A DNA stretch of 64,000 bases from a candidate division Zixibacteria bacterium SM23_81 (GTDB taxonomy: Bacteria; SM23-81). The stretch is taken from NCBI GenBank assembly GCA_001304015.1, contig LJUY01000006.1, positions 22,605-86,604 on the forward strand, in the 5' to 3' direction. Numbering within the stretch: the stretch's first letter is position 1; each line of letters opens with the position of its first letter. The notes under the pieces are model-generated. The model had not been told where the DNA came from. It worked only from the letters and a program-made list of their open reading frames with translations, and did not search any database. The position numbers were made by a program, and so were the translations under genes. Below, piece by piece: positions 35,441-54,497 of this stretch.

Positions 35441-35830
35441 GGGAGCCTCCTGAATGGGTAGATGGTGATAGAAAACCATAGGAACCCATTCAAGCTTATT
35501 GCAAGAATCAAGCCAGAAAAAAAAGATACCCAGGAATCCTCCTAAGTATCATTTTTTTACTTTATTACCTCGATGTAAGGACGATAATATTTAAGAAACT
35601 CAGTCCAGATCTGGTTAAGTTATAAACAAAATGACCTCCAATGGATTAGATATGATAATCATGGGAAGATCCGCAAGAAAAAACAGTTCTCCTCCAAGAG
35701 GTTAACGCCCTGACGAAAAATTCACCCAATGTTCAATTGCTGAAAGCCTTGAATGTAAATTGCACATTGATAAATTGAGGCCAGAAATGACCATAACTGG
35801 TCAGATACTTTCACGCAAAGCAGCTCACTT

Positions 35831-36844: not shown

Positions 36845-37711
36845 TCATATCAACCCTGGTGCCCAATCGAGAAGAATTTCAATAAGATGTTGCTGCTTAC
36901 AAAGCGGCGTAAAGGTATGATCTGTATCTTGAATAACTTCTATCCTTAATTTGCCATATTTCTTCAACTCATGAATCTCATCTCCGAGTCTGCTTTGTAG
37001 GTAGTCCAAACCTCGATCGCCTCCGGAGTAAATAAAGAGAGGGCTAATGCCGCGGGCTGACAATACCTGCAAATCTGCTACCAGATTGTTCGCTCTTGAA
37101 GACATATCTCTTTTACGAACAAACAAGCGCTTTATCTGACTCGTGGTTGATCGTATAATCTGCTGGTAACGAGACTTCCCTTTCATCGCTCTTCGCCAAC
37201 TTTTGAGACTAAACAAGGCACTTCTCCAGTAATGGCGAGCTACTCTGTCATATACCACAGAAGACCGCATCTCTTCATTATCATCAAAATACACCGGAGC
37301 ATTGATGGGAACAACACCCACAACTCGAGGATCACACAAAGCCGCTTTAAATGATATAACTGCTCCAGAACATATGCCAATGAGAATAAATCGATCAATG
37401 CCTCTTGTCGCATTCAGATAGTTCAGCGCTTCCTGGGTTTCGTTAATCGCTCTCTCATCGGAAAGAGATTCAACCTCACTTGCTCTGCTGTCTCCAATTC
37501 CAGAGAAGTCAAATCTCAATACAAAGAACCCTTCCTCAGCCAACTTCCGCGCCGCTTTCACGTAGAGACGATGGGGACCGACTCGATGCAAGAATCCAGA
37601 ATTGAGAAAGACAAACGCAGGAAAGTCATTGCCACTGAAAACCGGAGTTGGCTCGGTAATGATACCAACCAAAGATTTGGTTTTCCCAAAAAGCACAGCT
37701 TTGTCTCTCAT
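36845..37711 (-). CDS. Alpha/beta-hydrolase fold protein (Cys at nucleophile elbow)
   Basis: LRFDFSGIGDS, then nucleophile-elbow sequence GICSG (G-x-C-x-G). Paralogous to the upstream gene and overlaps it by 4 nt. Confidence 0.7.
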   Translation of the reverse strand: MRDKAVLFGKTKSLVGIITEPTPVFSGNDFPAFVFLNSGFLHRVGPHRLYVKAARKLAEEGFFVLRFDFSGIGDSRASEVESLSDERAINETQEALNYLNATRGIDRFILIGICSGAVISFKAALCDPRVVGVVPINAPVYFDDNEEMRSSVVYDRVARHYWRSALFSLKSWRRAMKGKSRYQQIIRSTTSQIKRLFVRKRDMSSRANNLVADLQVLSARGISPLFIYSGGDRGLDYLQSRLGDEIHELKKYGKLRIEVIQDTDHTFTPLCKQQHLIEILLDWAPGLI

Positions 37712-38526
37712 GGGAACATCTCAGAAATCCAGGAGACCACAAACTGCAGTACTTTAATAGGTACCATGCCCTGACCCCAGTCATCCCTTTCAATCCAAGG
37801 TTCAAAACCAGGGATGTGTTTATACCGCAAAGAAACACCAATGCTGTTTAGATGCTCACGAAACCTTCCATCCTCACTCACGTCACTGCTTTCGATGAAC
37901 AGTATTTTGCTAGCCGGTTTCTGCCGAATTGCGTAAAGGTCCAACTTTTCAAGATCTTTCAGCATAGAATCTGGAAGGGGAAACCCAAGCGCTTCTCTGT
38001 AACTTTCTCCTTCGGAGAAGGACTTTACCCCAGGAAAAAAGTTCCTTATCTTTTCCTGATGCAAGGTTGTCAGCTCCTCAATGTATTTCCTTCCATTGAT
38101 AACCGGATTCCAAAGGACTATACCATCAATATCACCTCGTTCGGCTCCAGCCAGCATCGCAAGGTTGCCCCCTAAACGAAGGCCCGCTAAACAAATCTGA
38201 TTCAGATCGCTTCCGCCTTTTAGTTCTTCTACCGCCGTTGATATATCGGCAAGCCATTGGCGAATTTCGCCCTGGTCGCTATCGCCCTCAGAATCACCAC
38301 ATCCGTAATAATCAAACCGTAAGGTGTGAAAACCAGCCGAAGAAAGAAGCATAGCTAATCGTACAAAGGCACGATGAGAACGGATGTAGTCTTCCCCCAT
38401 GGGATAACACAGAATAACTCCAACATTGCGAGCTTTTTCGAGTTGTGGCGGGTGATAAATCCCAAAAAGCGATCTGGCTGAATTCCCGAAATAGAATGGC
38501 TCCATCATATCATACTCAGATATCAC
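37708..38526 (-). CDS. Alpha/beta-hydrolase fold protein, paralog (Arg at nucleophile-elbow position)
   Basis: LRFDYYGCGDS aligns with the partner. The corresponding elbow reads GLRLG (G-x-R-x-G) by hand alignment. Confidence 0.7.
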   Translation of the reverse strand: MISEYDMMEPFYFGNSARSLFGIYHPPQLEKARNVGVILCYPMGEDYIRSHRAFVRLAMLLSSAGFHTLRFDYYGCGDSEGDSDQGEIRQWLADISTAVEELKGGSDLNQICLAGLRLGGNLAMLAGAERGDIDGIVLWNPVINGRKYIEELTTLHQEKIRNFFPGVKSFSEGESYREALGFPLPDSMLKDLEKLDLYAIRQKPASKILFIESSDVSEDGRFREHLNSIGVSLRYKHIPGFEPWIERDDWGQGMVPIKVLQFVVSWISEMFP

Positions 38527-39214
38527 TCCGGTTGTTGGAATCTCCTACTGTCATTCCAGTAAAAATATAGCCTCGATGAAAGAAAAACTTACCCTTATGG
38601 CAAGTTCCCTTCGCAAAAAAGAGATCGGTATCAGCCATATATCTGGCTTCGAACTCACCAATATTTGGATTCACAGAAATGGTTATATCATGAAAATTCA
38701 CCCATCTTTTGCTGGTTGTATATTGACATTTATAAAAGCATTCCTTTGCACTAAAGATAAGAGCGATATATTCTTGCTGAACATCGAGAGGCAAAGAATG
38801 TATCCATGACAACTCTTGTTTGGTGCATATTGCTTTCCAATAATCCCGCTCTAATCTGCCTACACACTCCGCATCGAATCCCACGCTTTCGATCTCTGTT
38901 TTCCGGGCAAGGGCTACTCCACAGTACCCCTCGGTATGGGAGATGCTGCCAATGATACCGGGCGGCCAAATAGGACTTCTGTCAGTGGCCATCAATATGG
39001 GAAAATTTCTTATGGCCACTTGGGCTAAGGCCCTGCGAGCACAGAGACGTCCAGCGATGAATTCTTGTTTTCTTTTGGGCACGGCGTTGCATATGAACGC
39101 CTCTTCTTGGGGATAAAGCGTCCCTTCGCTGAATACAGGATTTGCCTCCTCTGTTATGACTTGATCAGGAAAAAGGCAAGCTATGATGGTATGATCGCAC
39201 TTTTCTGTTAACAT
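38516..39214 (-). CDS. 4'-phosphopantetheinyl transferase (Sfp/EntD type)
   Basis: GSISHTEGYCGVALA and VGFDAE core motifs. Confidence 0.8.
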   Translation of the reverse strand: MLTEKCDHTIIACLFPDQVITEEANPVFSEGTLYPQEEAFICNAVPKRKQEFIAGRLCARRALAQVAIRNFPILMATDRSPIWPPGIIGSISHTEGYCGVALARKTEIESVGFDAECVGRLERDYWKAICTKQELSWIHSLPLDVQQEYIALIFSAKECFYKCQYTTSKRWVNFHDITISVNPNIGEFEARYMADTDLFFAKGTCHKGKFFFHRGYIFTGMTVGDSNNRSDI

Positions 39215-39216
39215 AG

Positions 39217-42200
39217 TTACTTCTTCTGCAATTGTCTTTCCAAATTGGCCGACATTTGGCCCAAAGTTTGATTGACAAATTCTGCAAAAGGCACTTCTAT
39301 ATTAAGATTCTCTTCTATCAATGAGATTGCTCGAATGACCAAAAGCGAATGTCCTCCCAGATCAAAGAAATTGTCATGAAGCCCGACTTTATCAACGCCT
39401 AATACACCTCTCCAGATCTCAGCGATCTTTTTTTCCATGGAACTACGTGGCGCGATGTAATCCAACTTCTCTATTTCGTGACCCTCGCTCAATTGACGCA
39501 AAAGCTGGTAATCAATTTTACCATTAGGAGTGAGAGGAATGGCATCAAGTGGAATAAATTGAGAGGGAATCATGTAATCAGGAAGCACCTCTCTCAAGAA
39601 ACGCCGTAAGGACAAAGAGGAGACAAGCTCGTCACAGATGATATATGCGATTAACCTTTTATCTCCCTGGCCAATATCGGATGTTACTACAACGCAATCT
39701 TTGATGACTTCATGCTTGGACAGCGCTGATTCTATCTCACCTAATTCAATACGAAATCCCCGGATCTTCACCTGCTGGTCGATGCGCCCCAAAAACTCGA
39801 TGTTCCCATCGGGCAAATAGCGGGTCAAATCCCCTGTCTTGTACAAACGTGCGCCTGGCTTCTCATTGAAGACGTTGGGGACGAACTTCTCCGCTGTCAA
39901 CTCTGGATGCTTTAGATAACCCCTGGCCAGGCCCACACCTCCAATGTGCAATTCAGCCGGCACGCCAATGGGAACGGGTTGTAAATGGGCATCCAGCAGA
40001 AAAACTTGCGTGTTGCTAATAGGCCGACCAATAGGTGGCGTTCGCCTATCTTCTGCGCATTCAGCTACGGTTGACCAGATGGTATCTTCGGTGGGACCAT
40101 AGAGGTTAAAGATACGACGTCCCTTGATCCAGCGTGGAACGAGGTCTCCAGGACAGGCTTCTCCAGCTACATTGAGTATTCCCAACGCCGGTAATTTCTC
40201 GGTCGGTAAGGCACCCAGAACCGATGGGGTGAGTACCATACAAGTTATGCTCAAATCTTGCATTAACTTTATCAGGGCGGGGCCGGGTAGCAGGGTCTCC
40301 TCCTTCCCCAGGCAGAGCGTTGCTCCAACTCGCAAAGCCAAAACGATATCGAAGATTGATGCATCAAAACTAAAAGAAAAAAACTGCAGGACACGGTCGG
40401 TAGAGCCGAGCTTAAATGTCCTCATATGTGCGTCAGACACATTACATAGACCACCGTGCGTCACAAGGACGCCTTTGGGTTTACCCGTAGATCCCGAGGT
40501 GTAAATCACATAGGCCAGGTTGTCGGGCATCACACCGCTGATGGGATTCTTCTCGCTCAGTTCATGGATGGTGGCCCAATCTGTATCCAAGCAGACCACA
40601 CGTGCCCTATGCTCAGGCAATCCAGCGAGCAACTTTTCTTGAGTCAACAGCACCGGCACTTGGGAGTCTGACAGCATGAAGGCCAGGCGTTTCTTGGGAT
40701 AGGCCGGGTCTAAGGGCATAAACGCTCCGCCAGCCTTGAGCACACCGAGTAGTCCCACTATCATCTCCAATGACCGCTCCATGCATATCCCCACGGGCAC
40801 CTCTGGTCCCACGCCAAGATTCCGCAAGTGGTGCGCCAACTGATTGGCACGTGCATTCAAGGCACGATAGGTCAACTGCTCCCCTTCATAAACCACACCG
40901 ATGGCGTCGGGCGTCCGCCCCACCTGATCTTCAAACAGATGGTGGAAACACGTATTCTGGGGATAATCCGCCCCGGTATCGTTCCATTCCACGAGCATTT
41001 GGTGACGCTCTGTGGTTGAGAAAAGCGGAAGGTCCCAGATAGGCCGGTCTGGATGAGCAACAACGCCTTCCAGCAGAATCTGGTATTGTTTCGCCATCCG
41101 GGCAATAGTGGCAGCATCAAATAAGTCTGTATTGTACTCCAACGACCCGATCAGCCCTTCTCCTGTATCCTTCACGATCAGAGTCAAGTCAAACTTCGCT
41201 GTTCCTGTGTGGACCTCCTCCGCGGAGCCAAACACCAGTCCCGGGAGCTCCACATCCTGCCTGGGAGCATCCTGCAGAACAAACATCACCTGAAACAGCG
41301 GATTGCGGCTCATATCCCGCTCCGGCTGTATTTCCTCAACAAGTTTCTCAAAGGGCAGATCTTGATGAGCATAAGCCCTCAGTGCTTCTTGGCGCACTCG
41401 ATCTAACAATTCCCGAAAGGTTGGCCTTCCCGAGAGATCGGTCCGCATCACCAGTGTGTTGACGAAGAAGCCTATCAATCTCTCCAGCTCGGCCCGGTTA
41501 CGATTGGCGATAACCGAGCCCACAACGATGTCTTCCTGGCCGCTATAACGAGCGAGCAAGGTCACGAAGACCGCCAGCAGAGTCATAAACAGACTGGTCC
41601 CTGAACGTTGACTCAGGGCTCTTAGATTTCCTCTCAGTTGAGAATCGATCTCAAGGTGCTCGATACTCCCCTGGAAGGTCTGAACTGCCGGTCGAGGACG
41701 ATCAGTGGGAAGCTCCAGCACAGGGATATTGGCAAGATGATTCTTCCAGTAGGCCAGCTGTGCCTCCAACACATCTCCCTCTAAACAACGCCGTTGCCAA
41801 ATAGCATAGTCTGCATACTGAATGGGCAGTTCGGTCAGCGGTGAGGGTTTTTTGGAAGAGAAAGCCTCGTAGAGTGCCGCCAACTCCCGAAAGATGATTC
41901 CCAGAGACCAACCATCGGAGATAATGTGGTGCATGGTCACAAGCAACACATGCTCCTTTTCATCCAGACATAGGAGCTTGGCGCGCAGTAGCGGCCCACG
42001 GGTTAGGTTAAAAGTCCGCTTAGCCTCCTCAGCAGCCAGCCTTTGCAGCTCAGCCTCCTGTTCTGATCCCGGGAGTTCCCGAAGGGCAATCACTGGCAGG
42101 GTTAGGTTCTGAGCAGGGGTCACAACCTGAAATGGTTGTCCATCCAGCGCCACAAAAGCAGTCCGCAAGATTTCATGACGCCGCACGATTTCTCCGAGAG

Positions 42201-42501
42201 TCCGCTCGAGCGCCGCCACATCGAGCGAACCTCTCAGGCGCAAGTGCACAGGCATGTTGTAGAAAGGATTGTCAGAGACCAATTGTTCGAGAAACCACAA
42301 CCCCTGTTGGGAAAAGGAGGCCAACACGAACTTTCTATGTTCACCTAAAAGAGTGAGAATCTCTGCCTTACGTTTTGAAAGTTCCCTCCGCGAAGATGGC
42401 GTGAGAACTCCTTCAGGTGCACGACAGTGTACTTTACCACTCTCGGTCCAGAGTTCTACTCCCTTTTGTAAAAGGTTGGCTAGAAAGCTAACGGTATTCA
42501 T
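39217..42501 (-). CDS. Non-ribosomal peptide synthetase, module 2 (docking region-C-A-T)
   Basis: Condensation motif HHIISDGWS. Adenylation cores LTYRALNARANQLA, YTSGSTGKPKGV, FDASIFD, NLYGPTE, YKTGDL, GRIDQQVKIRGFRIELGEIE. Thiolation domain FFDLGGHSL. No TE or reductase domain. Confidence 0.95.
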   Translation of the reverse strand: MNTVSFLANLLQKGVELWTESGKVHCRAPEGVLTPSSRRELSKRKAEILTLLGEHRKFVLASFSQQGLWFLEQLVSDNPFYNMPVHLRLRGSLDVAALERTLGEIVRRHEILRTAFVALDGQPFQVVTPAQNLTLPVIALRELPGSEQEAELQRLAAEEAKRTFNLTRGPLLRAKLLCLDEKEHVLLVTMHHIISDGWSLGIIFRELAALYEAFSSKKPSPLTELPIQYADYAIWQRRCLEGDVLEAQLAYWKNHLANIPVLELPTDRPRPAVQTFQGSIEHLEIDSQLRGNLRALSQRSGTSLFMTLLAVFVTLLARYSGQEDIVVGSVIANRNRAELERLIGFFVNTLVMRTDLSGRPTFRELLDRVRQEALRAYAHQDLPFEKLVEEIQPERDMSRNPLFQVMFVLQDAPRQDVELPGLVFGSAEEVHTGTAKFDLTLIVKDTGEGLIGSLEYNTDLFDAATIARMAKQYQILLEGVVAHPDRPIWDLPLFSTTERHQMLVEWNDTGADYPQNTCFHHLFEDQVGRTPDAIGVVYEGEQLTYRALNARANQLAHHLRNLGVGPEVPVGICMERSLEMIVGLLGVLKAGGAFMPLDPAYPKKRLAFMLSDSQVPVLLTQEKLLAGLPEHRARVVCLDTDWATIHELSEKNPISGVMPDNLAYVIYTSGSTGKPKGVLVTHGGLCNVSDAHMRTFKLGSTDRVLQFFSFSFDASIFDIVLALRVGATLCLGKEETLLPGPALIKLMQDLSITCMVLTPSVLGALPTEKLPALGILNVAGEACPGDLVPRWIKGRRIFNLYGPTEDTIWSTVAECAEDRRTPPIGRPISNTQVFLLDAHLQPVPIGVPAELHIGGVGLARGYLKHPELTAEKFVPNVFNEKPGARLYKTGDLTRYLPDGNIEFLGRIDQQVKIRGFRIELGEIESALSKHEVIKDCVVVTSDIGQGDKRLIAYIICDELVSSLSLRRFLREVLPDYMIPSQFIPLDAIPLTPNGKIDYQLLRQLSEGHEIEKLDYIAPRSSMEKKIAEIWRGVLGVDKVGLHDNFFDLGGHSLLVIRAISLIEENLNIEVPFAEFVNQTLGQMSANLERQLQKK

Positions 42502-45500
42502 AGCTCTAACTTCTCAAAGTCCTCACGAGAGGTGATGGTGTCGATTTCAGTAGCCGACTGAGCCTTGAGGATGTCTCCATTAGCCTGGGTAAAGCCGGCT
42601 ATCGTGGGTGCCTCAAATACGCTACTGAGAGGAAGCTCCACCTTAAAGGTGTCTCGGATGTGGGACACCACCTGCATGGTAAGCAATGAGTGTCCTCCCA
42701 ACTCAAAGAAATTATCGTGCACACCGACGCGTTCAACCCCGAGTACTTGGGCCCAGATTCTGGCCAGAATTTCCTCAACTGGATTTCGTGGAGCAACAAA
42801 GTCCTTTTCCAATTCAGGTCTTATTCGCTCCGGTGCAGGAAGCCGCTGACGGTCTACCTTCTTGTTGGGCGTTAGGGGAAGCGCCTGCAGCATCATGAAA
42901 GAAGAGGGAACCATATAATCTGGCAATTTCTTGCGCAGGAAACCACTCAATTCATTGATTGTGGGTGTCTGCTGCTGCTGTGGAACCACATAGGCCACCA
43001 GGCGTTTGTCACCAGGCTGATCCTCCCGAGCCATAACAACGGTCTCTCGCACAGCAGGGTGTCCTACCAGTACAGTTTCAATTTCTCCCAACTCGATGCG
43101 GAAACCGCGAACCTTTACCTGATAATCAAGGCGACCGATAAACTCGATGTTGCCGTCGGGCAGGTAGCGGGCCAGATCCCCAGTTTTGTACAGGCGCGCT
43201 CCCGGCTCCGCGCTGAAGGGGTTGGGGATGAACTGCTCAGCCGTCATCTCAGGGTAGTTCAGATAGCCTCGGGCAAGGCCAGCGCCGCCCAGGTACAGTT
43301 CGCCAAGAACTCCAATGGGAACAGACTGGAGATGTCGGTCCTGTAGATAGACTTGCGTATTAGCGATGGGGCGGCCGATGGGCGGTGATCCCGTGGCCTC
43401 CCCCCTCACCAAGGCAAATGTAGAATAGGTGGTGTCTTCCGAGGGGCCGTAGAGATTAAAGACCTGTTGAATCGTGTTCTGCTGATAGATCTGCTGCACA
43501 AGATGTTTCTGGAGCGGTTCCCCAGCCAAGTTCACGGTGTGCACCGAGGCAGGGATGCTATCGGCTCTCACCAACTCGGCTATCGTGGAGGGAACCGTGT
43601 TGATCAGGGTTACATCATTGGCGGCGGGTAAAGTGCGCAAATGTAATGCATTCTTGACCAAAATAACCTTGCCACCCCAGCTCAGAGGCACAAACTGCTC
43701 AAAGATCGACAGGTCAAAGCAGATTGATGTAGACAGCAAGACGCTAGCAAAATCCTCTGGAGCAAAGACTTCTCTCGCCCAGTTCAACATCACCACGGTG
43801 CTATGATGCTCGATACCCACCCCTTTAGGCCTGCCGGTAGACCCCGAGGTATAGAGCACGTAGGCCATGTTATTGGCTGTCACATCAGTGACGGGGGTTC
43901 GCGCGCTCTCGCGAGCAATAATCTCCCTATCTGCATCTAGGCATACCACACTTGTTTCCTCTTTGGAAAACCGATGAGCTAACCGCTGTTGGGTCAATAG
44001 CACTGGTGCTTGGGTGTCCTCCAGCATGAAGGCCAGACGCTCTTTTGGATACCATGGATCAAATGGAACGTAGGCTCCACCGGCTTTGAGAATACCAAGT
44101 AGCCCCACCATCATCTCTACCGATCTCTCGACGCAAATACCCACTAATACCTCAGGCCCTACACCCAGCTTTTGCAGGTAGTGCGCCAGTTGATTGGCTT
44201 GGCTGTTTAGCTCTCGGTAGGTCAGCTGCTCATCTTCAAAAACCAAAGCGATGGCGTCCGGAGTCTGATCCACTTGATCTTCAAACAACTGATGGATACA
44301 CTTTTCCTCAGCATACTCTCTATGAGTGTCGTTCCAGTCTAATATCAACTGATGTCTCTCGGCCTCGGTCAGCAAAGACAATTCCGAAAGCCGTTGCTGT
44401 GGATTCTCTACAATGCCTTCCAAGAGGGTTTGCAAATGCCCCAGCATGCGAGCAATGGTAGCGTCGTTGAAGTAATGTCGATCGTATCCAATCTCCAGCA
44501 AAAGTTCTGGCTCTGAATATCCGGACAGTACCAAGGGATAATTCGTCTGACCGGTGAACCGAACTTCTCGCTTCTCCCAACCACCACCCTCCGCCTGCAA
44601 AATAGAATGAAATGTGAAGTTCTCGAACACTACCAGGCTTTCAAATAATGGTTTACCCGCGGGTATGTCACTCCATTCCATAATTCTTGGCAGTGGCGTG
44701 TGCTCATACTCTCGTAATGCCACCCACTGCGCCCGAAGTTCCTTCAACAATAGCAGTAACGACTTTTCAGGAGACAGGGATGCCCGCATTGGAAGGGTGT
44801 TGAGAAGTATTCCCACCATGGATTCAATTCCCTCCAGAGCCGAATGACGACAGGCTCTTGTGGCTCCAAAAACCACATCCTCTTCGCCGCTATAGCGGCT
44901 CAGGAGCAGGACCCAAGCTCCTTGTATGAGGGTGTTGAGGGTTAATTCATGTCGTTCAGCCAGGGATCGCAATGCTGTCGTCATGGTTTCCGTGAGTCGA
45001 ATTCCTTTCTCTTTATAATCCCCTTTCTCAACAGACTTATCACCATGGACGCGGTCTACGACCAAAGGTGTGGGAGCGGTGAAGCCTTTGAGCGTACGTC
45101 GCCAGAAAGTCTCTGCCTCAGTCAGGTCCTGTTCCTCCAGCCAATTGATGTAGTCCCGATAAGGAGGGGCATGTTTGAGGGACAAGTCCTGGTTCTGAGA
45201 AAAAGCTTCGTAAAAGGCAAAGATCTCTAACCAGAGTAAATAGGCAGATCGACCATCTAACAAGGCATGGTGCAAGGTCCAGATGAACCGGTAGTCGGCC
45301 TGGCCCACTCGAAAAAGCGCCAAGCGCACAAGGGGGGCCTCGGTGAGTTCGAAACTACGACATCGATCCGTCTGGAGATATGACAAGAGCCGGCTTTTCT
45401 GCTCCTCCGTAGGAAGATCCCGCCAGTCTTGTTCTTCGAATGGGAGGGTAACATGCGTGTGTACGTCCTGAAGAGGCTCCTTGAGCCCCTCCCAACGGAA

Positions 45501-45704
45501 ACTTGTTCTTAAGATGGCGTGCCGTTCCGCAACTCGCTGCCAGGCCCTCTTGAAGGCAGAGACGTTTAGGTCTTCATGGAAAGCACAGATAAACTGCACA
45601 TGATATACGCCGGACTGTCGCGTATTTAGGCTATGGAAGAGCATGCCCTGCTGTACGGGTGAAAGGCGGTATGAATCTTCGATATTCTCTGTTTTCATTC
45701 GCAT
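42498..45704 (-). CDS. Non-ribosomal peptide synthetase, module 1 (starter C-A-T)
   Basis: N-terminal C domain (LSPVQQGMLF, HHALLDGRS). A-domain cores (LTYRELNSQANQLA, YTSGSTGRPKGV, FDLSIFE, NLYGPSE, YKTGDL, GRLDYQVKVRGFRIELGEIE). T domain FFELGGHSL. Overlaps module 2 by 4 nt. Confidence 0.95.
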   Translation of the reverse strand: MRMKTENIEDSYRLSPVQQGMLFHSLNTRQSGVYHVQFICAFHEDLNVSAFKRAWQRVAERHAILRTSFRWEGLKEPLQDVHTHVTLPFEEQDWRDLPTEEQKSRLLSYLQTDRCRSFELTEAPLVRLALFRVGQADYRFIWTLHHALLDGRSAYLLWLEIFAFYEAFSQNQDLSLKHAPPYRDYINWLEEQDLTEAETFWRRTLKGFTAPTPLVVDRVHGDKSVEKGDYKEKGIRLTETMTTALRSLAERHELTLNTLIQGAWVLLLSRYSGEEDVVFGATRACRHSALEGIESMVGILLNTLPMRASLSPEKSLLLLLKELRAQWVALREYEHTPLPRIMEWSDIPAGKPLFESLVVFENFTFHSILQAEGGGWEKREVRFTGQTNYPLVLSGYSEPELLLEIGYDRHYFNDATIARMLGHLQTLLEGIVENPQQRLSELSLLTEAERHQLILDWNDTHREYAEEKCIHQLFEDQVDQTPDAIALVFEDEQLTYRELNSQANQLAHYLQKLGVGPEVLVGICVERSVEMMVGLLGILKAGGAYVPFDPWYPKERLAFMLEDTQAPVLLTQQRLAHRFSKEETSVVCLDADREIIARESARTPVTDVTANNMAYVLYTSGSTGRPKGVGIEHHSTVVMLNWAREVFAPEDFASVLLSTSICFDLSIFEQFVPLSWGGKVILVKNALHLRTLPAANDVTLINTVPSTIAELVRADSIPASVHTVNLAGEPLQKHLVQQIYQQNTIQQVFNLYGPSEDTTYSTFALVRGEATGSPPIGRPIANTQVYLQDRHLQSVPIGVLGELYLGGAGLARGYLNYPEMTAEQFIPNPFSAEPGARLYKTGDLARYLPDGNIEFIGRLDYQVKVRGFRIELGEIETVLVGHPAVRETVVMAREDQPGDKRLVAYVVPQQQQTPTINELSGFLRKKLPDYMVPSSFMMLQALPLTPNKKVDRQRLPAPERIRPELEKDFVAPRNPVEEILARIWAQVLGVERVGVHDNFFELGGHSLLTMQVVSHIRDTFKVELPLSSVFEAPTIAGFTQANGDILKAQSATEIDTITSREDFEKLEL

Positions 45705-45824
45705 TTTCTCTCTCGGCTTGACCGATTTTGATGATCAGATGGAAACCAGATAGGGCGGCCAGCTGCTTTTTGTATACAGGAATTAAACCGCTCTCTTTTG
45801 TCGGTAACTCACAATTTTACCAAA

Positions 45825-46457
45825 CTATGCCTCTACAAACTCAAGATGCCCTTGACCTGTTAGGGTATTGAGATCAATGTCAGCGACACACTGGACTTTA
45901 ACGTAATTAAGCGTCAGACCCCCCACAAGATGAGCATTCCCAGTTTGGTTATCGAAATCGGCCTGGTTTAAATCGGTCGTACCATGATCAAGTCTAACTC
46001 CCAGCTCTGTCCCCCCCCTTGTATCCGTGAACTTAACAAGGATATATCCTCGATCGATAGCTTCTCTAAAGAGTTTAACAGTCTTTTCAGGTCGCAGAGC
46101 TATTTCCACTGGATGATCGCCTTCTGAAAGAAATTGTCCCAAATCGTCCCTCGGGTCTTTCTTTTTATTTTTCTCTGCCTCATTTACTTTCAAGGCTTTT
46201 TCCTTATCTCCTTCCTCTCTCTTTTGGGCCATCTCCTCCATTTTCTTTCTGAGACTGAGTGGCCGCATATCCGTCCAGACTTTCTTTATGAAAGCCAGGC
46301 ACTCATCTTTAGACCCACTTTGACCAACCTTTTTCCAGCCAAGAGGCGGATTTCCTTTATGCTCAAGCCAAATAGAATACTGCTCTTCTTGATTTACGAC
46401 GACTTCGTATGTCGTCGTGTCCTCCTGGTTGTCTCTATTCATCTCGCCATCCTCCAA
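45825..46457 (-). CDS. MbtH-like protein fused to a C-terminal domain of unknown function
   Basis: The N-terminal ~70 aa (YEVVVNQEEQYSIWLEHKGNPPLGWKKVG...CLAFIKKVWTDMRP) match the MbtH signature. A K/E-rich linker and a ~100-aa beta-rich C-terminal domain follow. Confidence 0.75.
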   Translation of the reverse strand: MEDGEMNRDNQEDTTTYEVVVNQEEQYSIWLEHKGNPPLGWKKVGQSGSKDECLAFIKKVWTDMRPLSLRKKMEEMAQKREEGDKEKALKVNEAEKNKKKDPRDDLGQFLSEGDHPVEIALRPEKTVKLFREAIDRGYILVKFTDTRGGTELGVRLDHGTTDLNQADFDNQTGNAHLVGGLTLNYVKVQCVADIDLNTLTGQGHLEFVEA

Positions 46458-46754: not shown

Positions 46755-48116
46755 TTACACAGCCACACGCCCATCTACATCCTGGGGCACGCGAACGTCC
46801 ATCATGCTCAGAATGGTGGGCATAAGATCCATAATCTCCACATCTTCCTGTACAGAGCGCCGACCCAGCACCAACAAAAAAGCATCATCGTAAGTGTGCA
46901 TACCCACTAAGGCCGTTTTTTCAAACAACAAAGCTTTCTTAACATCCGCCTTGAGATCAAATCCATCAGTGGGAATGGCGATGAGATCTGCCGCCTGGAA
47001 CAGACTATCCCCGTGATAAATCTCCTCCCTCCTCGCTACCTTCCGGATGACCCTCTCCCCTGTATCTGGGTTCCGAAGCTCTAGGAGACCCTCGGCTACC
47101 TCCCCTCTGACTCGATCATAATCAGAGGGGTCTACACTTCCCTTGGGTTCCCGCCCCTTCATGTTGATGTAGATGCGCCCGGGAAGGAGCGTGTAGGCTT
47201 TGGAGCTGGGATGAATATCCTGGAGGCTCTCAGGTGGATTCTCTCCGAATCTCAGCCATCCCTTCTCCAATAAATATCGACTGAGATTCACCTCTTTCTT
47301 AACGGTGCAAAAGCCGTGGTCGGACAACAGGATAAAGGTAACATCATCGTTCATCCTATTGTGGAACATACCTAGAATCTCGTCGATCTGCTCATAGTAA
47401 TTCAGGAAGGGCGTTTTGTATTCGGGATGTTCCTGCTCCATATGCTCCCACATGAAGTGATTAATTCTATCGGTGCCCATAACATGGAGCTGAAAATAAT
47501 CCCAGGACTGGCGGTCCATGAAATAGGACACGGCCTGAATTCTCCTTTCCAAGGTAATGCGCAAGTCCTCCAAGAACTTGTCCAAGGATTCCCGGGCCTG
47601 GGCAGAATCCACGTCGATTCGGTAACCCATCTGTTCCAGCTGTCCAGCGATCTCCCTGGGGAATGTGGCCTTTTTCAGGTTGGTGGCCAAAAAGCCAGCC
47701 ACCAATATTCCGTTTACGGATCTGACTGGATATGTGACCGGAACGTTGATGACCACGACCCTCTTTCCTCGTTCGCTGAGGATCTCCCACAGAGTCTTGC
47801 TGGTCATGTTCAAAGAGGTGGGTATGAACATCTCGTAGGAGCTAGGACGGTGATCCACGAAGCCGAAGATGCCATGCTTTCCCGGATTTTTCCCGGTCAT
47901 GAAGGTGGACCAGGCCACTGAGGAGATGGTGGGTAATACGGATCTCATCCTGGTGAATGAGCCTTCTTCCACCATCTTGGCAAGGTGCGGAAGCCGTCCT
48001 TGGGACATCTGTGCTTCCAGGAAGCTATAAGGGACACCGTCGAGGCTGAGAACGAAAACGCGGCGTTTTTTTGGCCTAGTTCTAAAAAAAGCCATGTCCT
48101 GTGTTCCTCTGCTCAT
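46755..48116 (-). CDS. AlkP-superfamily PF01663 (type I phosphodiesterase / nucleotide pyrophosphatase-like) protein, paralog 1
   Basis: N-terminal metal-site VLSLDG. LPTISSVAW...GKNPGKHGIFGF aligns to the NPP nucleophile region P-S-x-T-F-P-N-H. The start is probably the ATG at 48095 (AGAGGA upstream). Confidence 0.75.
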   Translation of the reverse strand: MSRGTQDMAFFRTRPKKRRVFVLSLDGVPYSFLEAQMSQGRLPHLAKMVEEGSFTRMRSVLPTISSVAWSTFMTGKNPGKHGIFGFVDHRPSSYEMFIPTSLNMTSKTLWEILSERGKRVVVINVPVTYPVRSVNGILVAGFLATNLKKATFPREIAGQLEQMGYRIDVDSAQARESLDKFLEDLRITLERRIQAVSYFMDRQSWDYFQLHVMGTDRINHFMWEHMEQEHPEYKTPFLNYYEQIDEILGMFHNRMNDDVTFILLSDHGFCTVKKEVNLSRYLLEKGWLRFGENPPESLQDIHPSSKAYTLLPGRIYINMKGREPKGSVDPSDYDRVRGEVAEGLLELRNPDTGERVIRKVARREEIYHGDSLFQAADLIAIPTDGFDLKADVKKALLFEKTALVGMHTYDDAFLLVLGRRSVQEDVEIMDLMPTILSMMDVRVPQDVDGRVAV

Positions 48117-48129
48117 TCAATCTGTGGAC

Positions 48130-48765
48130 TTAGAGATACCCGAGATCCTCTAGCCTTCTCTGGATCTTCTCTTCCTCTTCCTGGGAATAAACCTCATCCT
48201 CCTCCAGCGAAGCCATCTGGTCTGCCACCGTTGACAGGGCCGGAACGTAACCCAATTCTTCTAGCTTCCGGATGACCGTATCTCGACATTCCTCTGGGCC
48301 AGTCTTATCGACCTTTAGGAGAACTTCTGGATGAAGCGGCTCTTCATAAGGATCGTCCACCCCAGTGAAGTCCTTAATCTCTCCCGCCCTGGCCTTCTTG
48401 TACATGCCCTTCACATCTCTTTGCTCACAGACCGCCACAGGGGCAGCCACAAAGACTTCCACAAAGTTGGTGGTCTCCCTTCTGGCATTGTCTCTTGCCT
48501 CTCTATATGGAGAGACAAAAGAAACCAGCACAGCTACCCCATTTCGACTTAACAGCTTGGCTACGAAAGTGACTCGCTCGATGTTTTTGTCTCGGTCCTC
48601 TTTGGAAAAACCCAAATCGCGGGTCAGGCTCTGTCTGACGATGTCTCCATCCAGACGCTCGACCCTCAAATTTCTCCTCTTCAACTCTTCGGCCACCAAA
48701 TCGGCCACCGTCGTCTTGCCGGAGCAGGGAAGCCCTGTGAACCACACGGTACATCCTGGTTGCAT
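48130..48765 (-). CDS. cysC: Adenylylsulfate (APS) kinase
   Basis: P-loop GLPCSGKTT, LDGDIVRQSL and a ~40-aa acidic C-terminal tail. Confidence 0.9.
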   Translation of the reverse strand: MQPGCTVWFTGLPCSGKTTVADLVAEELKRRNLRVERLDGDIVRQSLTRDLGFSKEDRDKNIERVTFVAKLLSRNGVAVLVSFVSPYREARDNARRETTNFVEVFVAAPVAVCEQRDVKGMYKKARAGEIKDFTGVDDPYEEPLHPEVLLKVDKTGPEECRDTVIRKLEELGYVPALSTVADQMASLEEDEVYSQEEEEKIQRRLEDLGYL

Positions 48766-48784
48766 TTTAGGATCCTCCTTGAAC

Positions 48785-50170
48785 TTAGATGATAGATTTT
48801 CCCTCCATATCTTCTGGAACTGGTAGATTGAAAATCCGAAGTATCGTCGGGGCGAGATCCATCAAATGCAGATGAGATACCTTGCCCCTGGGAAGTCCTG
48901 AGTTCTTCATAACAAATATGCCGTATTGCGAGTGATTGGCGTCGTCCGGTCCAGTATCGTTCTCAAAGGTGTGGATGTCTCCGAAGCCCACACTGCCCAC
49001 GGAACGCCAAGATAGGTTCCCGAAGTAGATGATCAAATCTGGAGCCACGTTCTTCACCTGAGGATAGATATCCTGAGGCTTGAAGACACGGGTATTGATG
49101 TTCTCACCATTCTCATCCTCGATGGCCTCCAGCTTGGTAATGAGATGGTCGCGGAACTTCTCATAGTCTTGGGGTTCGATAACTCCCTGGGGCTCCCGGT
49201 TCTTTACATTGAGGAACAGCCGGCCATAATAACCCCCGGAGCCCCAGGCTTTGGTGTGAGGCCAGTCTATGTTATCGTGGCTCAGAGGAAAAACCTCCCT
49301 GGGAGGATTTTTCAATCGCAGATACCCTTCCCTCATGAGCCATTCGTTGATGCAAATCCCACCGTCCATACGTTGAGCGCCGTGATCGGAGACGATGAAG
49401 ATCACGGTCCGCTCGTCCACCTTGCTCACTATTCGACCAACCAGGCTGTCAACATACTGGTAATATTCCTTGAGAACACTCTTGTACGGTGAGTTTGGCT
49501 CATACTTTCTATGCTGCTCATCGAAATACTTCCAGAGGCCATGATGAATCCGATCGATGCCCATATCCACGAACATAAAAAAGTCCCATTCCTTGTTTAC
49601 CAGAAGATGGTTCACAACCCGAAACCTGTTCTCGGTCATATCGTAAATCTGCTTGATGAGATCATCCTTGTCCTCTGTCCTGAACTTCTTCACGTCCAAG
49701 ATGTACTCTCCCACCACATCTTCGATCTCCCTCTTCAACTCCTGCGGATAGGTATATTGGCAGTTTGTGTCCGGGGCCAGAAATCCGGATATCATAGAAC
49801 CATTGAGAGGTTTCGGTGGATAGGTTTGAGGAACGCCAACCAGAACGCTTTTTTTGCCTGCTCGGGACAGTATGTCCCAAACTCGATCCTCCTTGACCGC
49901 TTGAGAGGTAGCGAAGTACATCTCATCATAGGAATAGTTCTTCCGATTGCGAAAGCCATAGAAACCCAACACTCCAGGACTTTTGCTAGACACCATAGAG
50001 GTCCAGGCTGGAACGGTAATGGGTGGTATTGTGCTCTCAAGTTCCCCATACACGCTCTGCTCTAGAATTGCTTTGAAATGAGGTAAATCATCAACCCAGC
50101 GGTCAAAGATCAGCTGAGGGGTAGCGCAATCCAGGCCTATGACCAGCACTTTCCTGCCGGTGTGAGGCAA
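48785..50170 (-). CDS. AlkP-superfamily PF01663-like protein, paralog 2
   Basis: VLVIGLDCATP, IPPITVPAWTSM...GFYGF. Same architecture as paralogs 1 and 3. Confidence 0.75.
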   Translation of the reverse strand: MPHTGRKVLVIGLDCATPQLIFDRWVDDLPHFKAILEQSVYGELESTIPPITVPAWTSMVSSKSPGVLGFYGFRNRKNYSYDEMYFATSQAVKEDRVWDILSRAGKKSVLVGVPQTYPPKPLNGSMISGFLAPDTNCQYTYPQELKREIEDVVGEYILDVKKFRTEDKDDLIKQIYDMTENRFRVVNHLLVNKEWDFFMFVDMGIDRIHHGLWKYFDEQHRKYEPNSPYKSVLKEYYQYVDSLVGRIVSKVDERTVIFIVSDHGAQRMDGGICINEWLMREGYLRLKNPPREVFPLSHDNIDWPHTKAWGSGGYYGRLFLNVKNREPQGVIEPQDYEKFRDHLITKLEAIEDENGENINTRVFKPQDIYPQVKNVAPDLIIYFGNLSWRSVGSVGFGDIHTFENDTGPDDANHSQYGIFVMKNSGLPRGKVSHLHLMDLAPTILRIFNLPVPEDMEGKSII

Positions 50171-50457
50171 AAAGCATCTCCTTTCATCAGATAGTTAAAA
50201 GAGTAACTCTCATCCTCTCAGAATTCACAAAACCTTCATTTTGCTCAGAAAACTCTAGCACACGCGACAAGTTACTCTAAAAAGGATTTCTTGCTTCTTA
50301 TTTTCTTAACAAGCTTTCCTCGTTGTAAACCTTTCCCACCGATTCTCCGGTGCGACAAGAAAATCGAACCTCTTGTTTCTTCCCTGTGGCATGAAGGGTC
50401 TTTCTACGAAAACCTCGAGAACTTCCTAATGATCCAGCCAGGAAGTGAATATTCTGG

Positions 50458-53146: not shown

Positions 53147-53258
53147 GAGGTATCACTGCGTTTCCACTTATGGTTCAAGGTAACATTTTTAGGCACAGCA
53201 GTTGCTTTGATTCCCCTGAATGCGGTGAGAGAACTTGCTTTTTCGACTTTCTCTGCCT

Positions 53259-54410: not shown

Positions 54411-54497
54411 TATCCCATCTCCCTTCTATGTATGATTTCTAAAAACAGGTATAGGTCGAATCGAGCATATATTCTCCTCTTCAACTATCCCACCCGG

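What the first reader, a model, noticed from the sequence alone, without database searches (positions are those of the whole stretch)
39217..46457. Two-module NRPS with starter condensation domain, MbtH partner and no terminal release domain
Two adjacent genes encode C-A-T and docking region-C-A-T modules and together specify a dipeptidyl unit. The first module opens with a C domain, which usually means N-acylation or attachment to an amine-bearing acceptor. Neither module carries TE, reductase or terminal C domains. The two A domains are highly similar overall but differ around core A4 (FDLSIFE versus FDASIFD), so they may select related but different substrates. A rough hand-derived Stachelhaus read of module 1 resembles an Ala/Gly-type code, but this is unreliable without software. 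Release may occur through the downstream alpha/beta-hydrolase pair or by transfer onto the amino-sugar made by the upstream genes.
Basis: partly seen in the sequence, partly recalled or inferred. Interest (0 to 1): 0.75.

Follow-up and report, generated by a model that had tools for sequence, protein, structure and literature searches.

The report
Release-domain-less dipeptide synthetase in glycan locus
Two adjacent genes of an uncultured Zixibacteria-like bacterium encode a two-module peptide synthetase with no built-in release domain; it is always followed by an unusual pair of hydrolase-like proteins that probably unloads the dipeptide, likely onto a surface sugar polymer.

Summary
NRPS1 (42498-45704, minus strand) is C-A-T. 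NRPS2 (39217-42501) is TubC_N docking domain-C-A-T. Neither has a TE, reductase or terminal C domain. An MbtH-like gene lies upstream and an Sfp-type PPTase downstream.

- **A1:** carries DLFNNALTYK, which I recall as the alanine code, and is closest to the McyA A domain.
- **A2:** DAFVNALIWK, an orphan code.
- **C2:** an ordinary LCL type.
- **C1:** intact (HHALLDG) and conserved. It lies in the DCL clade, not the classical Starter/LCL group. Within that clade it falls in a subclade (bootstrap 0.81) whose members nearly all begin assembly lines.

The new point is the hydrolase pair.
- ABH2 has an invariant Cys nucleophile (13/13 loci).
- ABH1 has Arg or Gly at that position in 12/13.
- In Proteobacteria the two are fused into one protein.
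- In at least 11 of 13 loci they sit beside a carrier protein and an adenylating enzyme, or a TE-less NRPS. Most of these loci are polysaccharide loci; Variovorax has the same NRPS-PPTase-ABH1-ABH2 order.
- They are nearly absent from 166 generic NRPS loci.

Best reading: an (acyl-)Ala-X unit is unloaded by this pair, probably onto a glycan. The C1 donor, the A2 substrate and the acceptor are all unknown.

The parts
45825..46442 (-). MbtH-like protein (residues 6-58), Lys/Glu-rich helix, then a C-terminal CBF-beta-like domain; 205 aa from the ATG at 46442
   Evidence: PF03621 62.8 bits and PF02312 32.3 bits. The 205-aa gene is called on six contigs. AF2 model with pLDDT above 90 in both domains. 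Fold matches to PA2412 MbtH and to CBF-beta.
42498..45704 (-). NRPS1, module 1: C1-A1-T1 plus a 28-residue C-terminal tail
   Evidence: Pfam. 94% identical ortholog P0121. Ortholog in L090.
44346..45680 (-). C1 condensation domain: intact HHALLDG, DCL clade, start-of-line subclade
42858..44285 (-). A1 adenylation domain, code DLFNNALTYK (Ala by recalled code table)
   Evidence: Alignment to verified 1AMU. McyA A domain scores 693 bits against 486 or less for any other single A domain. The code is the commonest among 478 related A domains.
42585..42770 (-). T1 carrier domain (GGHSL)
   Evidence: PF00550 61.2 bits; sequence.
42501..42584 (-). C-terminal tail ...DTITSREDFEKLEL, the probable docking peptide for the TubC_N domain of NRPS2
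   Evidence: The last 14 residues are identical in the L090 ortholog. The partner docking domain is present on NRPS2. Binding is inferred.
39217..42501 (-). NRPS2, module 2: docking domain-C2-A2-T2; its start overlaps the NRPS1 stop by 4 nt
   Evidence: Pfam; ORF coordinates.
42343..42489 (-). TubC_N-type N-terminal docking domain
   Evidence: PF18563 58.6 bits, cut-off 26.
40993..42333 (-). C2 condensation domain, LCL type (HHIISDG)
39517..40935 (-). A2 adenylation domain, code DAFVNALIWK (orphan specificity)
39247..39429 (-). T2 carrier domain; only 9 residues follow it
   Evidence: PF00550 52.2 bits; sequence.
38516..39214 (-). Sfp/EntD-type 4'-phosphopantetheinyl transferase
   Evidence: PF17837 plus PF01648. 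Best NCBIfam match is PptT, below cut-off.
37708..38526 (-). ABH1: alpha/beta-hydrolase fold with Arg at the nucleophile elbow (GLRLGG); probable non-catalytic partner
   Evidence: Best family match is TIGR03101 hydr2_PEP, 103.6 bits. Elbow residues. Found fused after a T domain in L146.
36845..37711 (-). ABH2: alpha/beta-hydrolase fold with a Cys nucleophile (GICSG, Cys114) and conserved His265; candidate off-loading enzyme
   Evidence: Best family match is TIGR03100 hydr1_PEP, 98.8 bits. Cys in 109 of 120 homologs and in 13 of 13 loci. AF2 model is an alpha/beta hydrolase.
35831..36679 (-). Polysaccharide deacetylase (NodB family); last gene of the co-directional run
   Evidence: PF01522 69.3 bits. 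Best NCBIfam match is the XrtA-system polysaccharide deacetylase, below cut-off.
35525..35550 (-). Terminator-like hairpin (11-bp stem followed by T8) after the deacetylase gene
46755..63973 (-). Upstream co-directional glycan and sulfation genes. Three AP-superfamily proteins, APS kinase, GT4, ATP sulfurylase, BNR protein, GT-C (PMT_2), polyprenyl-phosphate-type GT2, LegC/PseC-like aminotransferase, KamA-family aminomutase, flippase-like protein, ATP-grasp, and a LegB-like 4,6-dehydratase cut by the window end
   Evidence: From the BNR gene onward (as far as locus L090 extends upstream) the same order is conserved in L090, with an extra sulfotransferase gene.

Best explanation
This is a complete, self-contained bimodular NRPS that makes an (N-acyl-)L-Ala-X dipeptidyl thioester. 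It is unloaded in trans rather than by a built-in release domain.

**Shown from sequence**
- A PPTase gene is present to prime T1 and T2, and an MbtH-like gene lies upstream.
- A1 has an alanine-type pocket. A2 has an orphan pocket.
- NRPS1 ends in a short tail and NRPS2 starts with a TubC_N docking domain, which fixes the order NRPS1 then NRPS2.
- C2 is an LCL-type domain, and there is no E domain.
- C1 is intact, conserved and belongs to a DCL-derived subclade found at the start of assembly lines.

**Inferred**
- C1 N-acylates Ala-S-T1 with a thioester donor that is not encoded nearby, such as acyl-CoA or acyl-ACP.
- C2 forms the Ala-X bond on T2.
- Cys114 of ABH2 takes the chain from T2 as a thioester.
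- ABH1, which has Arg in place of a nucleophile, acts as a non-catalytic partner that engages the carrier domain.
- The chain passes to a nucleophile on a sugar or glycan intermediate made by the surrounding operon. One candidate is the 4-amino group of a bacillosamine-like sugar. Another is an amine exposed by the adjacent deacetylase. Failing that, the chain is released to water.
For: **NRPS anatomy**
- Domain architecture and absence of TE or reductase.
- The run NRPS1-NRPS2-PPTase-ABH1-ABH2 has 4-nt, 11-nt and 4-nt overlaps and one 2-nt gap. A terminator-like hairpin follows the deacetylase gene.
- The block from the BNR gene to the deacetylase, including both Stachelhaus codes, is conserved in a second species, L090.
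- A1 code and the standout score against the McyA A domain.

**C-domain typing**
- C2 scores 281-416 bits against LCL structures. C1 scores 71-140 bits against them.
- 60 of 60 cis and 38 of 39 trans E-following C domains are closer to C1. 128 of 144 C domains that follow C-A-T are closer to C2.
- C1 sits in a 12-member clade (bootstrap 0.81). Apart from its own L090 ortholog, 8 of the 9 classifiable members start an assembly line.
- C1 has HHALLDG and is 93% identical between the two species. That is more conserved than C2 (89%), A2 (87%) or the ABHs (82-84%).
- The PvdL C domain that follows the N-terminal acyl-ligase-T region (recalled, not tested here, to accept a fatty acyl group) scores 305 bits and the SrfA-A starter C domain 235 bits against C1.

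**Hydrolase pair**
- ABH2 has Cys in 109 of 120 homologs and in 13 of 13 loci, with an invariant D-H motif. ABH1 has Arg in 9, Gly in 3 and Ser in 1 of 13 loci.
- The two proteins are fused in Proteobacteria, ABH1-like half first.
- An ABH1-like domain sits directly after the last T domain of an NRPS in L146.
- Contexts: the adjacent synthetase genes in L178, L179 and Variovorax show no TE. ACP with an AMP-ligase or an amino acid-[ACP] ligase is found in Shinella, Roseateles, Azospirillum, Mycetohabitans and Rhizobium.
- Glycan genes are adjacent in 12 of 13 loci. In three of these the only one is a family-2 glycoside hydrolase or mannosidase (same calls).
- Control: the pair is absent from 166 generic NRPS loci apart from the L146 fusion.
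Against: - No biochemical data exist for any member of the ABH pair family.
- The ABH2 fold search returns only generic esterases and lipases.
- C1 clusters with DCL domains, whose normal donor is a D-aminoacyl or peptidyl chain from an E domain. No acyl-activating enzyme or free ACP is seen in the 64-kb window.
- Some relatives of the cassette lack a starter C domain (L178 is A-T-C-A-T), so N-acylation is not a general feature.
- The acceptor is inferred from gene neighbourhood only.
- ABH2 and ABH1 score below the curated cut-offs of TIGR03100 and TIGR03101.
Confidence: 0.55

Rival explanations
1. The cluster makes a free small metabolite. The NRPS produces an (N-acyl) dipeptide that the ABH pair simply hydrolyses off T2. 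The sugar and sulfation genes are a neighbouring but separate pathway, or they act later on the free product.
For: - ABH2 has the fold of ordinary esterases and lipases.
- Hydrolysis is the default chemistry of this fold.
- A 313-nt gap separates the MbtH gene from the upstream AP gene, so a separate transcript is possible.
Against: - The pair is found in glycan loci in several phyla, with very different carrier-protein systems.
- A Cys nucleophile with a dead partner is unusual for a plain thioesterase.
- Neither protein matches PF00975 Thioesterase.
- The gene order, with the PAPS and AP genes immediately upstream, is conserved in L090.
Confidence: 0.2
2. NRPS1 is not the first module. C1 is a true DCL domain that receives a D-aminoacyl or peptidyl chain from an unlinked subunit ending in an E domain, so the product is longer than a dipeptide.
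For: - C1 lies in the DCL clade, and 98 of 99 E-following C domains are closer to it than to C2.
- Its best solved relatives include McyB C1, the C domain of the BacC E-C pair, TycB1 and SrfA-C.
- Its N-terminus (NIEDSYRLSPVQQGMLFH) resembles those of its clade relatives.
Against: - C1's own subclade (bootstrap 0.81) consists almost entirely of C domains with no NRPS gene upstream.
- No other NRPS gene lies in the 64-kb window or next to the L090 ortholog.
- NRPS1 has no N-terminal docking domain, whereas NRPS2 has one.
- The MbtH gene sits immediately upstream of NRPS1, as it does upstream of the first module in L087.
Confidence: 0.1
3. The ABH pair is not the release step. Either the dipeptidyl-S-T2 releases itself as a diketopiperazine with C1 idle, or C1 acts in trans as the terminal condensation domain and joins the T2-bound chain to a free amine such as the amino sugar. 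The ABHs would then be editing or unrelated enzymes.
For: - From general knowledge, TE-less dimodular NRPSs can shed diketopiperazines spontaneously.
- Also from general knowledge, free-standing or terminal C domains such as VibH use soluble amines.
- C1 has no identified donor.
Against: - The pair co-occurs with carrier-protein systems that have no C domain at all, namely ACP plus ligase.
- The adjacent synthetases in the other loci also lack a TE.
- An ABH1-like domain occupies the TE position in L146.
- The C1 clade is linked to the first position of longer assembly lines, not to termination.
Confidence: 0.08

Closest known systems
Exosortase A (XrtA/PEP-CTERM) EPS-locus cassette: acyl-CoA ligase TIGR03098, ACP, PLP decarboxylase TIGR03099, hydrolase 1 TIGR03100 and hydrolase 2 TIGR03101
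   Same: - ABH2 and ABH1 have these two hydrolase families as their best matches.
- The GT4 and the deacetylase also best match XrtA-system families.
- The Shinella relative carries the ligase, ACP and decarboxylase next to a fused hydr2+hydr1 protein.
- These NCBIfam models are of the 'hypoth_equivalog' type, so no function is assigned to them.
   Different: - All scores are below the curated cut-offs (98.8 against 168; 103.6 against 203).
- Here a full two-module NRPS with C domains replaces the ligase and ACP.
- No exosortase or PEP-CTERM protein was seen in the window.
- No decarboxylase is present.
DltABCD (D-alanylation of teichoic acids) and AlmEFG (glycine or diglycine on Vibrio cholerae lipid A)
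   Same: It would work alike. An adenylating enzyme loads an amino acid on a phosphopantetheinyl carrier protein, and the aminoacyl group is then transferred to a cell-surface glycopolymer or glycolipid. AlmEFG is described in PMC4278540; Dlt is from general knowledge.
   Different: - Those systems have no condensation domains and transfer single amino acids.
- Their transferases (DltB/DltD, AlmG) are MBOAT, SGNH-like or LpxM-like proteins, not a Cys alpha/beta-hydrolase with a pseudo-hydrolase partner.
- Here a dipeptide is built first.
Trans-acting acyltransferases that take substrates off T domains: CmaE, SyrC and CouN7/CloN7
   Same: - They move T-domain-bound aminoacyl or acyl groups to another carrier or to a free-standing substrate (PMC8748450).
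- From memory, CouN7's acceptor is the noviose sugar hydroxyl, and SyrC and CmaE are alpha/beta-hydrolase-fold enzymes with an active-site Cys, like ABH2.
   Different: - Sequence relatedness to ABH2 was not tested because no reference sequences were available.
- Those enzymes act alone, not with a nucleophile-less paralog.
- They belong to secondary-metabolite clusters, not polysaccharide loci.
Lipoinitiation C domains (Starter C domains of surfactin-type lipopeptides; the PvdL C domain after its N-terminal acyl-ligase-T region)
   Same: [quoted passage not shown]
- The PvdL C domain scores 305 bits and the SrfA-A starter C domain 235 bits against C1, both higher than against C2.
   Different: - Classical Starter C domains group with LCL domains (PMC1894796). 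C1 groups with DCL domains.
- No acyl ligase, FAAL or ACP is encoded nearby.
Amino acid-[carrier protein] ligase operons of Alphaproteobacteria and Betaproteobacteria (aaRS-like ligases that load Gly or Ala on carrier proteins; end product unknown, from memory of Mocibob et al. 2010)
   Same: The fused ABH1-ABH2 protein is part of these operons. The order is ACP, acyl-CoA-dehydrogenase-like gene, ligase, DUF1839, GH2, then the fused ABH, in Azospirillum, Mycetohabitans and Rhizobium.
   Different: - The activating enzyme is of a different kind (tRNA-synthetase-like against an NRPS A domain).
- No peptide bond is formed.
- The ABHs are fused.
Lincosamide synthetase
   Same: NRPS A and T components supply an amino acid that is amide-linked to an amino sugar (PMC4351081).
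   Different: The condensing enzyme, the sugar chemistry (mycothiol/ergothioneine dependent) and the cluster content are unrelated. It is cited only as a precedent for NRPS-to-amino-sugar coupling.

Membership tests
Modular (type I) NRPS | C, A and T domains in module order with intact core motifs | tested here: met
   Pfam matches for both proteins. HHALLDG and HHIISDG. SGSTGxPK and GGHSL.
Modular (type I) NRPS | Terminal release domain (TE, reductase or terminal C) on the last module | tested here: not met
   Nine residues follow T2. No PF00975, NAD_binding_4 or extra Condensation match.
Starter C domain subtype (Rausch et al. 2007) | First domain of the first module of the assembly line | tested here: met
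   No NRPS gene is upstream in the window or in L090. The subclade consists of start-of-line C domains.
Starter C domain subtype (Rausch et al. 2007) | Groups with Starter/LCL rather than DCL/Dual domains; matches the Starter pHMM | tested here: not met
   C1 groups with E-following (DCL) domains. PMC1894796 places Starter with LCL. The Rausch pHMMs themselves were not available.
DCL condensation domain | Sequence clade of C domains that follow an E domain | tested here: met
   60 of 60 cis and 38 of 39 trans E-following domains are closer to C1 than to C2. McyB C1, the BacC C domain after residues 1-472 (taken to be an E domain from the chain layout), TycB1 and SrfA-C are top solved relatives.
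DCL condensation domain | Upstream partner module ending in an E domain that supplies a D-configured donor | tested here: not met
   None is present in the 64-kb window or beside the L090 ortholog. A partner elsewhere in the genome cannot be excluded with these tools.
LCL condensation domain (C2) | Clusters with C domains that follow C-A-T without an E domain | tested here: met
   Median 459 bits against cisT domains and 135 against E-following ones. Txo1/2 and TycC6 are top solved relatives.
Ala-activating A domain (A1) | Specificity code and close relatives that activate alanine | tested here: met
   DLFNNALTYK; its assignment to Ala is from memory of published code tables. The McyA A domain scores 693 bits, with the next single A domain at 486. 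That this McyA domain activates Ala is also recalled, and no substrate assay was possible.
MbtH-like protein | PF03621 match above the gathering score, encoded with an NRPS | tested here: met
   62.8 bits against 27. 59% identity to PA2412 in the fold search.
TubC_N beta-hairpin docking pair | N-terminal docking domain on the downstream subunit and a short C-terminal peptide on the upstream one | tested here: met
   PF18563 58.6 bits on NRPS2. A conserved 28-residue tail on NRPS1. The interaction itself is not testable here.
TIGR03100 / TIGR03101 (hydrolases 1 and 2, exosortase A system-associated) | Score above the curated cut-off | tested here: not met
   ABH2 scores 98.8 against 168.45 and ABH1 scores 103.6 against 202.75. 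They are relatives, not members.
TIGR03100 / TIGR03101 (hydrolases 1 and 2, exosortase A system-associated) | The two unlike hydrolases occur together next to an adenylating enzyme and a carrier protein in a polysaccharide locus | tested here: met
   Window, L090, L178 and L179, Shinella and Variovorax.
Type II thioesterase | PF00975 match with a GxSxG serine nucleophile | tested here: not met
   No PF00975 match. The elbows are GLRLG and GICSG.
SyrC/CmaE-type aminoacyl shuttles | Alpha/beta-hydrolase fold with an active-site Cys acting on T-domain thioesters | tested here: inconclusive
   The fold and the Cys nucleophile are present. Homology to SyrC or CmaE and activity could not be tested.
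Arn (L-Ara4N lipid A modification) pathway | ArnB, ArnC, ArnD and ArnT equivalogs | tested here: not met
   The ArnB model scores 235.9 against 631 and ArnC 65.6 against 529. There is no ArnD match. The GT-C protein matches only PMT_2/Agl23. The resemblance is at the family level only.

The most novel reading that the evidence does not exclude
ABH1 and ABH2 are a previously uncharacterised two-part transferase: a Cys alpha/beta-hydrolase plus an Arg-elbow pseudo-hydrolase, found separate, fused to each other, or fused to a T domain. They would move carrier-protein-bound acyl, aminoacyl or NRPS-made peptidyl groups onto polysaccharide or glycolipid intermediates. In this bacterium that would give a surface glycan carrying an (N-acyl-)Ala-X dipeptide on a bacillosamine-like, possibly sulfated, sugar. 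The same enzyme pair would also be the missing downstream step of the orphan amino acid-[carrier protein] ligase operons and of the XrtA-locus ligase/ACP cassette.
Probability: 0.35. Interest if true: 0.8.

Novelty: new variant of a known kind. Interest (0 to 1): 0.62.

Why it matters
If the reading is right, NRPS chemistry is being used to decorate a cell-surface glycan with a short peptide, not to make a diffusible natural product. The release step would use an enzyme pair that genome-mining tools do not recognise as a release device.

The same pair occurs in cultured, tractable bacteria: Variovorax paradoxus, Azospirillum brasilense, Mycetohabitans rhizoxinica and Burkholderia gladioli. There it sits next to carrier-protein systems whose products are, as far as I recall, still unknown. 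The idea can therefore be tested directly. It could also explain a set of 'hypothetical equivalog' families in exopolysaccharide loci.

Tried and rejected
- **Collection scans:** scans of genome contigs and metagenome contigs with NRPS1 returned only generic NRPS modules at 55% identity or less. The loci were still useful as a reference set for C-domain typing.
- **MbtH fusion as a cluster marker:** this failed. The family is large, and four of the seven distinct loci examined have no NRPS gene in the stretch seen.
- **Literature:** searches for the Stachelhaus codes found nothing. Haft 2006 does not mention the hydrolases. Searches for Zixibacteria NRPS, for NRPS-EPS links and for the carrier-protein ligases gave nothing specific.
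- **ABH2 structure:** prediction and PDB fold search gave only generic esterases.
- **Promoter scan:** no enrichment, and it is not suited to this phylum.
- **Arn-pathway membership:** considered and rejected, because the scores are far below the cut-offs.
- **C1 as a decaying relic:** rejected, because the motif is intact and C1 is more conserved than C2.
- **A2 specificity:** could not be assigned. The code is unique to the orthologs and is at least 3 mismatches from any of 478 related A domains.

Full report
**What is there.** All genes of the finding lie on the minus strand, inside a long co-directional run from the window end (63973) down to 35831.
- NRPS1 (42498-45704, 1068 aa) is C-A-T.
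- NRPS2 (39217-42501, 1094 aa) is TubC_N docking domain-C-A-T.
- Pfam finds no thioesterase, reductase or extra condensation domain. Only 28 and 9 residues follow the two carrier domains.
- NRPS1, NRPS2, a PPTase (38516-39214) and two alpha/beta-hydrolase genes (37708-38526, 36845-37711) overlap by 4, 11 and 4 nt or are 2 nt apart.
- A NodB-family deacetylase (35831-36679) follows, then a terminator-like hairpin at 35550-35525.
- The MbtH gene upstream most likely starts at the ATG at 46442, giving 205 aa.
- A fragment of the MbtH protein is 99% identical to a protein of candidate division Zixibacteria SM23_81. T9SS and Bam genes in the window fit that group.
One correction: the two A domains are 52% identical, which is not unusually similar.

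**Substrates.**
- I checked my recalled GrsA sequence against PDB entry 1AMU. It was identical over 531 residues except residue 2. I then used it to read the ten specificity positions.
- A1 gives DLFNNALTYK, which I recall as the standard bacterial alanine code. A2 gives DAFVNALIWK.
- The A1 domain alone scores 693 bits against the A domain of the solved McyA fragment. Every other single solved A domain scores 486 or less. From memory, that McyA module activates alanine.
- Among 478 A domains from related loci, DLFNNALTYK is the commonest code (42 times). Other codes I recall as the textbook ones (Thr, Ser, Val, Leu, Gln) are also recovered, which supports the extraction.
- The A2 code occurs only in the orthologs and is at least 3 mismatches from anything else. 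No solved A domain stands out against A2.
- Both codes are unchanged in the orthologous cluster L090. Module 1 is therefore alanine with good confidence. Module 2 is unassigned.

**Condensation domains.**
- Against solved structures, C2 behaves as an LCL domain: Txo2 416, Txo1 396 and TycC6 281 bits.
- C1 scores only 71-140 bits against LCL domains. It scores 419 against McyB C1, 305 against the PvdL C domain that follows the protein's first ~556 residues, 284 against the BacC C domain, 244 against TycB1, 239 against SrfA-C and 235 against the SrfA-A starter domain.
- The functional labels of these solved domains are from memory or inferred from chain layout. PvdL's N-terminal region is recalled to be an acyl-ligase plus T domain, BacC residues 1-472 are taken to be an E domain, and the others are recalled as DCL or starter types.
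- I built a reference set from 177 fetched loci and labelled each C domain by what precedes it. All 60 C domains directly after an E domain, and 38 of 39 at the start of a protein whose upstream neighbour ends in an E domain, are closer to C1. By contrast, 128 of 144 C domains that follow C-A-T are closer to C2.
- C1 therefore belongs to the DCL clade. It does not belong to the classical Starter group, which Rausch et al. place with LCL (PMC1894796).
- Within that clade, a neighbour-joining tree puts C1 in a 12-member group with 0.81 bootstrap support (200 replicates). Besides C1's own L090 ortholog, ten other loci belong to it. Eight start an assembly line with no NRPS gene upstream, one follows a T domain, and one is fused behind a PBP transpeptidase domain.
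- C1 keeps HHALLDG and is 93% identical between the window and L090. C2 is 89% identical and A2 87%. It is not a relic.
- I read C1 as a start-of-line domain of DCL ancestry whose donor is not encoded nearby. The domain types were called by Pfam, motifs and a recalled GrsA E-domain query, not by curated subtype models.

**The hydrolase pair.**
- NCBIfam names 'hydrolase 2' and 'hydrolase 1, exosortase A system-associated' as the best matches of ABH1 and ABH2. Both are below the cut-offs.
- ABH2 has GICSG at the nucleophile elbow. Cys is present in 109 of 120 homologs and Ser in 10, and His265 is conserved.
- ABH1 has GLRLGG, with Arg where the nucleophile should be.
- Across 13 loci, ABH2-like sequences have Cys and a D-H motif in all 13. 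ABH1-like sequences have Arg in 9, Gly in 3 and Ser in 1.
- In proteobacterial plasmids and chromids the two are fused into one protein of about 600 aa, with the ABH1-like half first.
- In metagenome locus L146, an ABH1-like domain with the Arg elbow is fused directly after the last T domain of an NRPS, where a TE would normally sit.

**Contexts of the pair.**
- L178: GT4, AsnB, a TE-less A-T-C-A-T NRPS, the pair, a Wzx-type flippase and a PMT_2 GT-C.
- L179: a chain-length regulator gene, A-T, P450, C, C-A-T, the pair and a PPTase.
- Variovorax paradoxus VAI-C: A-T-KS-AT-T-aminotransferase and C-A-T-C-T proteins without a TE. Then come PPTase, ABH1 and ABH2 in the same order as in the window, followed by Wza, Wzc, a sugar transferase and glycosyltransferases.
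- Shinella and Roseateles: a polysaccharide locus with an ACP, an AMP-ligase and the fused pair. Shinella also has a PLP decarboxylase, and its ligase and decarboxylase best match the XrtA-associated families.
- Azospirillum (two species), Mycetohabitans and Rhizobium: the fused pair closes an operon of ACP, an acyl-CoA-dehydrogenase-like gene, an amino acid-[ACP] ligase, DUF1839 and GH2.
- Two loci are unclear: Burkholderia gladioli and Caballeronia.
- Control: 166 generic NRPS loci (2.75 Mb) contain no ABH2-like gene, and only the L146 fusion for ABH1.
- The pair is therefore tied to carrier-protein thioesters, to synthetases that lack a TE, and mostly to glycan loci. The sample is 13 loci, so this is an association, not a survey.

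**Surroundings in the window.** Upstream, in the same direction, lie the following genes:
- three AP-superfamily paralogs, APS kinase and ATP sulfurylase;
- a GT4 whose best match is an XrtA-system glycosyltransferase, and a BNR protein;
- a PMT_2 GT-C enzyme and a small GT2 of the polyprenyl-phosphate-sugar type;
- a LegC/PseC-family aminotransferase, a KamA-family aminomutase, a flippase-like protein and an ATP-grasp enzyme;
- a LegB-like 4,6-dehydratase cut by the window end.

On the other strand lie a sulfotransferase, a methyltransferase and an SGNH protein. Where locus L090 extends, from the BNR gene to the deacetylase, the same block is conserved, with a sulfotransferase inserted among the AP genes. 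This looks like a pathway for a 4-amino-4,6-dideoxy-HexNAc-type sugar carried on a polyprenyl phosphate, with sulfation. It resembles the Arn pathway only at the family level, since all equivalog scores are far below their cut-offs.

**Mechanism proposed.**
- *Shown:* the parts list, the order of modules, the absence of an E domain and of a release domain, the alanine-type pocket, the Cys/Arg pattern of the pair and its genomic associations.
- *Inferred:*
  - C1 N-acylates Ala-S-T1 from an acyl thioester of primary metabolism.
  - C2 makes L-Ala-X on T2.
  - ABH2 Cys114 takes the chain by transthioesterification, while ABH1 engages the carrier domain.
  - The chain is passed to an amine or hydroxyl of a sugar intermediate, possibly one exposed by the adjacent deacetylase, or to water.
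- *Precedents for the logic:* AlmEFG (PMC4278540), Dlt, CmaE/SyrC/CouN7 (PMC8748450) and lincosamide synthetase (PMC4351081).

**Verdict.**
- The NRPS itself is an ordinary member of its kind.
- The interest lies in the trans-acting release pair and the glycan setting. Both appear uncharacterised, and both can be tested in cultured bacteria.
- The C1 donor, the A2 substrate and the acceptor remain unknown.

Noticed in passing
window 45825-46442 (minus): The MbtH-like protein carries a second, C-terminal domain of about 100 aa. It passes the Pfam CBF_beta gathering score (32.3 against 25). It is modelled at pLDDT above 90, and its best PDB fold matches are metazoan core-binding factor beta (1io4_D, TM 0.67 on the target, 25% identity). 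The fusion family is large: 3833 hits at 60-67% identity across several phyla. It occurs both directly upstream of NRPS genes and in loci with no NRPS, twice next to an ankyrin-repeat gene.
   Followed up: partly
L146 1-1684 (metagenome contig SDBT01014249.1): An NRPS ends ...A-T followed directly by an ABH1-like domain with the Arg elbow (GARIGS), in the position normally held by a thioesterase domain.
   Followed up: partly
L180, L186, L190, L191 (Azospirillum, Mycetohabitans and Rhizobium plasmids): The fused ABH1-ABH2 protein is the last gene of a conserved operon: ACP, acyl-CoA-dehydrogenase-like gene, amino acid-[ACP] ligase, DUF1839, GH2. As far as I recall, the product of such carrier-protein ligase operons is unknown.
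   Followed up: partly
window 58922-63237 (minus): A KamA-family radical-SAM aminomutase (317 bits) has a 215-residue N-terminal extension. It sits between a LegC/PseC-like aminotransferase and a flippase-like (LPG_synthase_TM) protein plus an ATP-grasp ligase. This suggests a beta-amino acid is also attached somewhere in this pathway.
   Followed up: no
window 46755-51981 (minus): Three paralogous AP-superfamily (PF01663) proteins with no close named family are interleaved with APS kinase. They lie near ATP sulfurylase and, in L090, a sulfotransferase. Their role in a sulfation pathway is unclear.
   Followed up: no
L094 2379-7250 (metagenome contig ORMF011148883.1): A penicillin-binding-protein transpeptidase-like region appears fused N-terminally to a C-A-T module. 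The domain call rests on the precomputed Pfam list of the look-alike protein P0176 and on reading the L094 sequence. That module's C domain belongs to the same start-of-line subclade as C1.
   Followed up: no
window 31738-32100 (plus): A 120-aa ORF matches only the C-terminal part of a carbamoyltransferase. It is wedged between a methyltransferase and an SGNH/AlgX-like gene, so it may be a gene remnant. It is also called on the other contigs.
   Followed up: no
window 16339-19314 (minus): A 991-aa ORF with no Pfam match lies next to a TonB-dependent-receptor-like gene. It may be a SusD-like or other outer-membrane partner.
   Followed up: no
window 28000-32000 and 50000-54000: G+C falls to 0.40-0.45 in these stretches, against 0.55-0.59 at 12-22 kb. 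The glycan/NRPS region is therefore compositionally mosaic.
   Followed up: no
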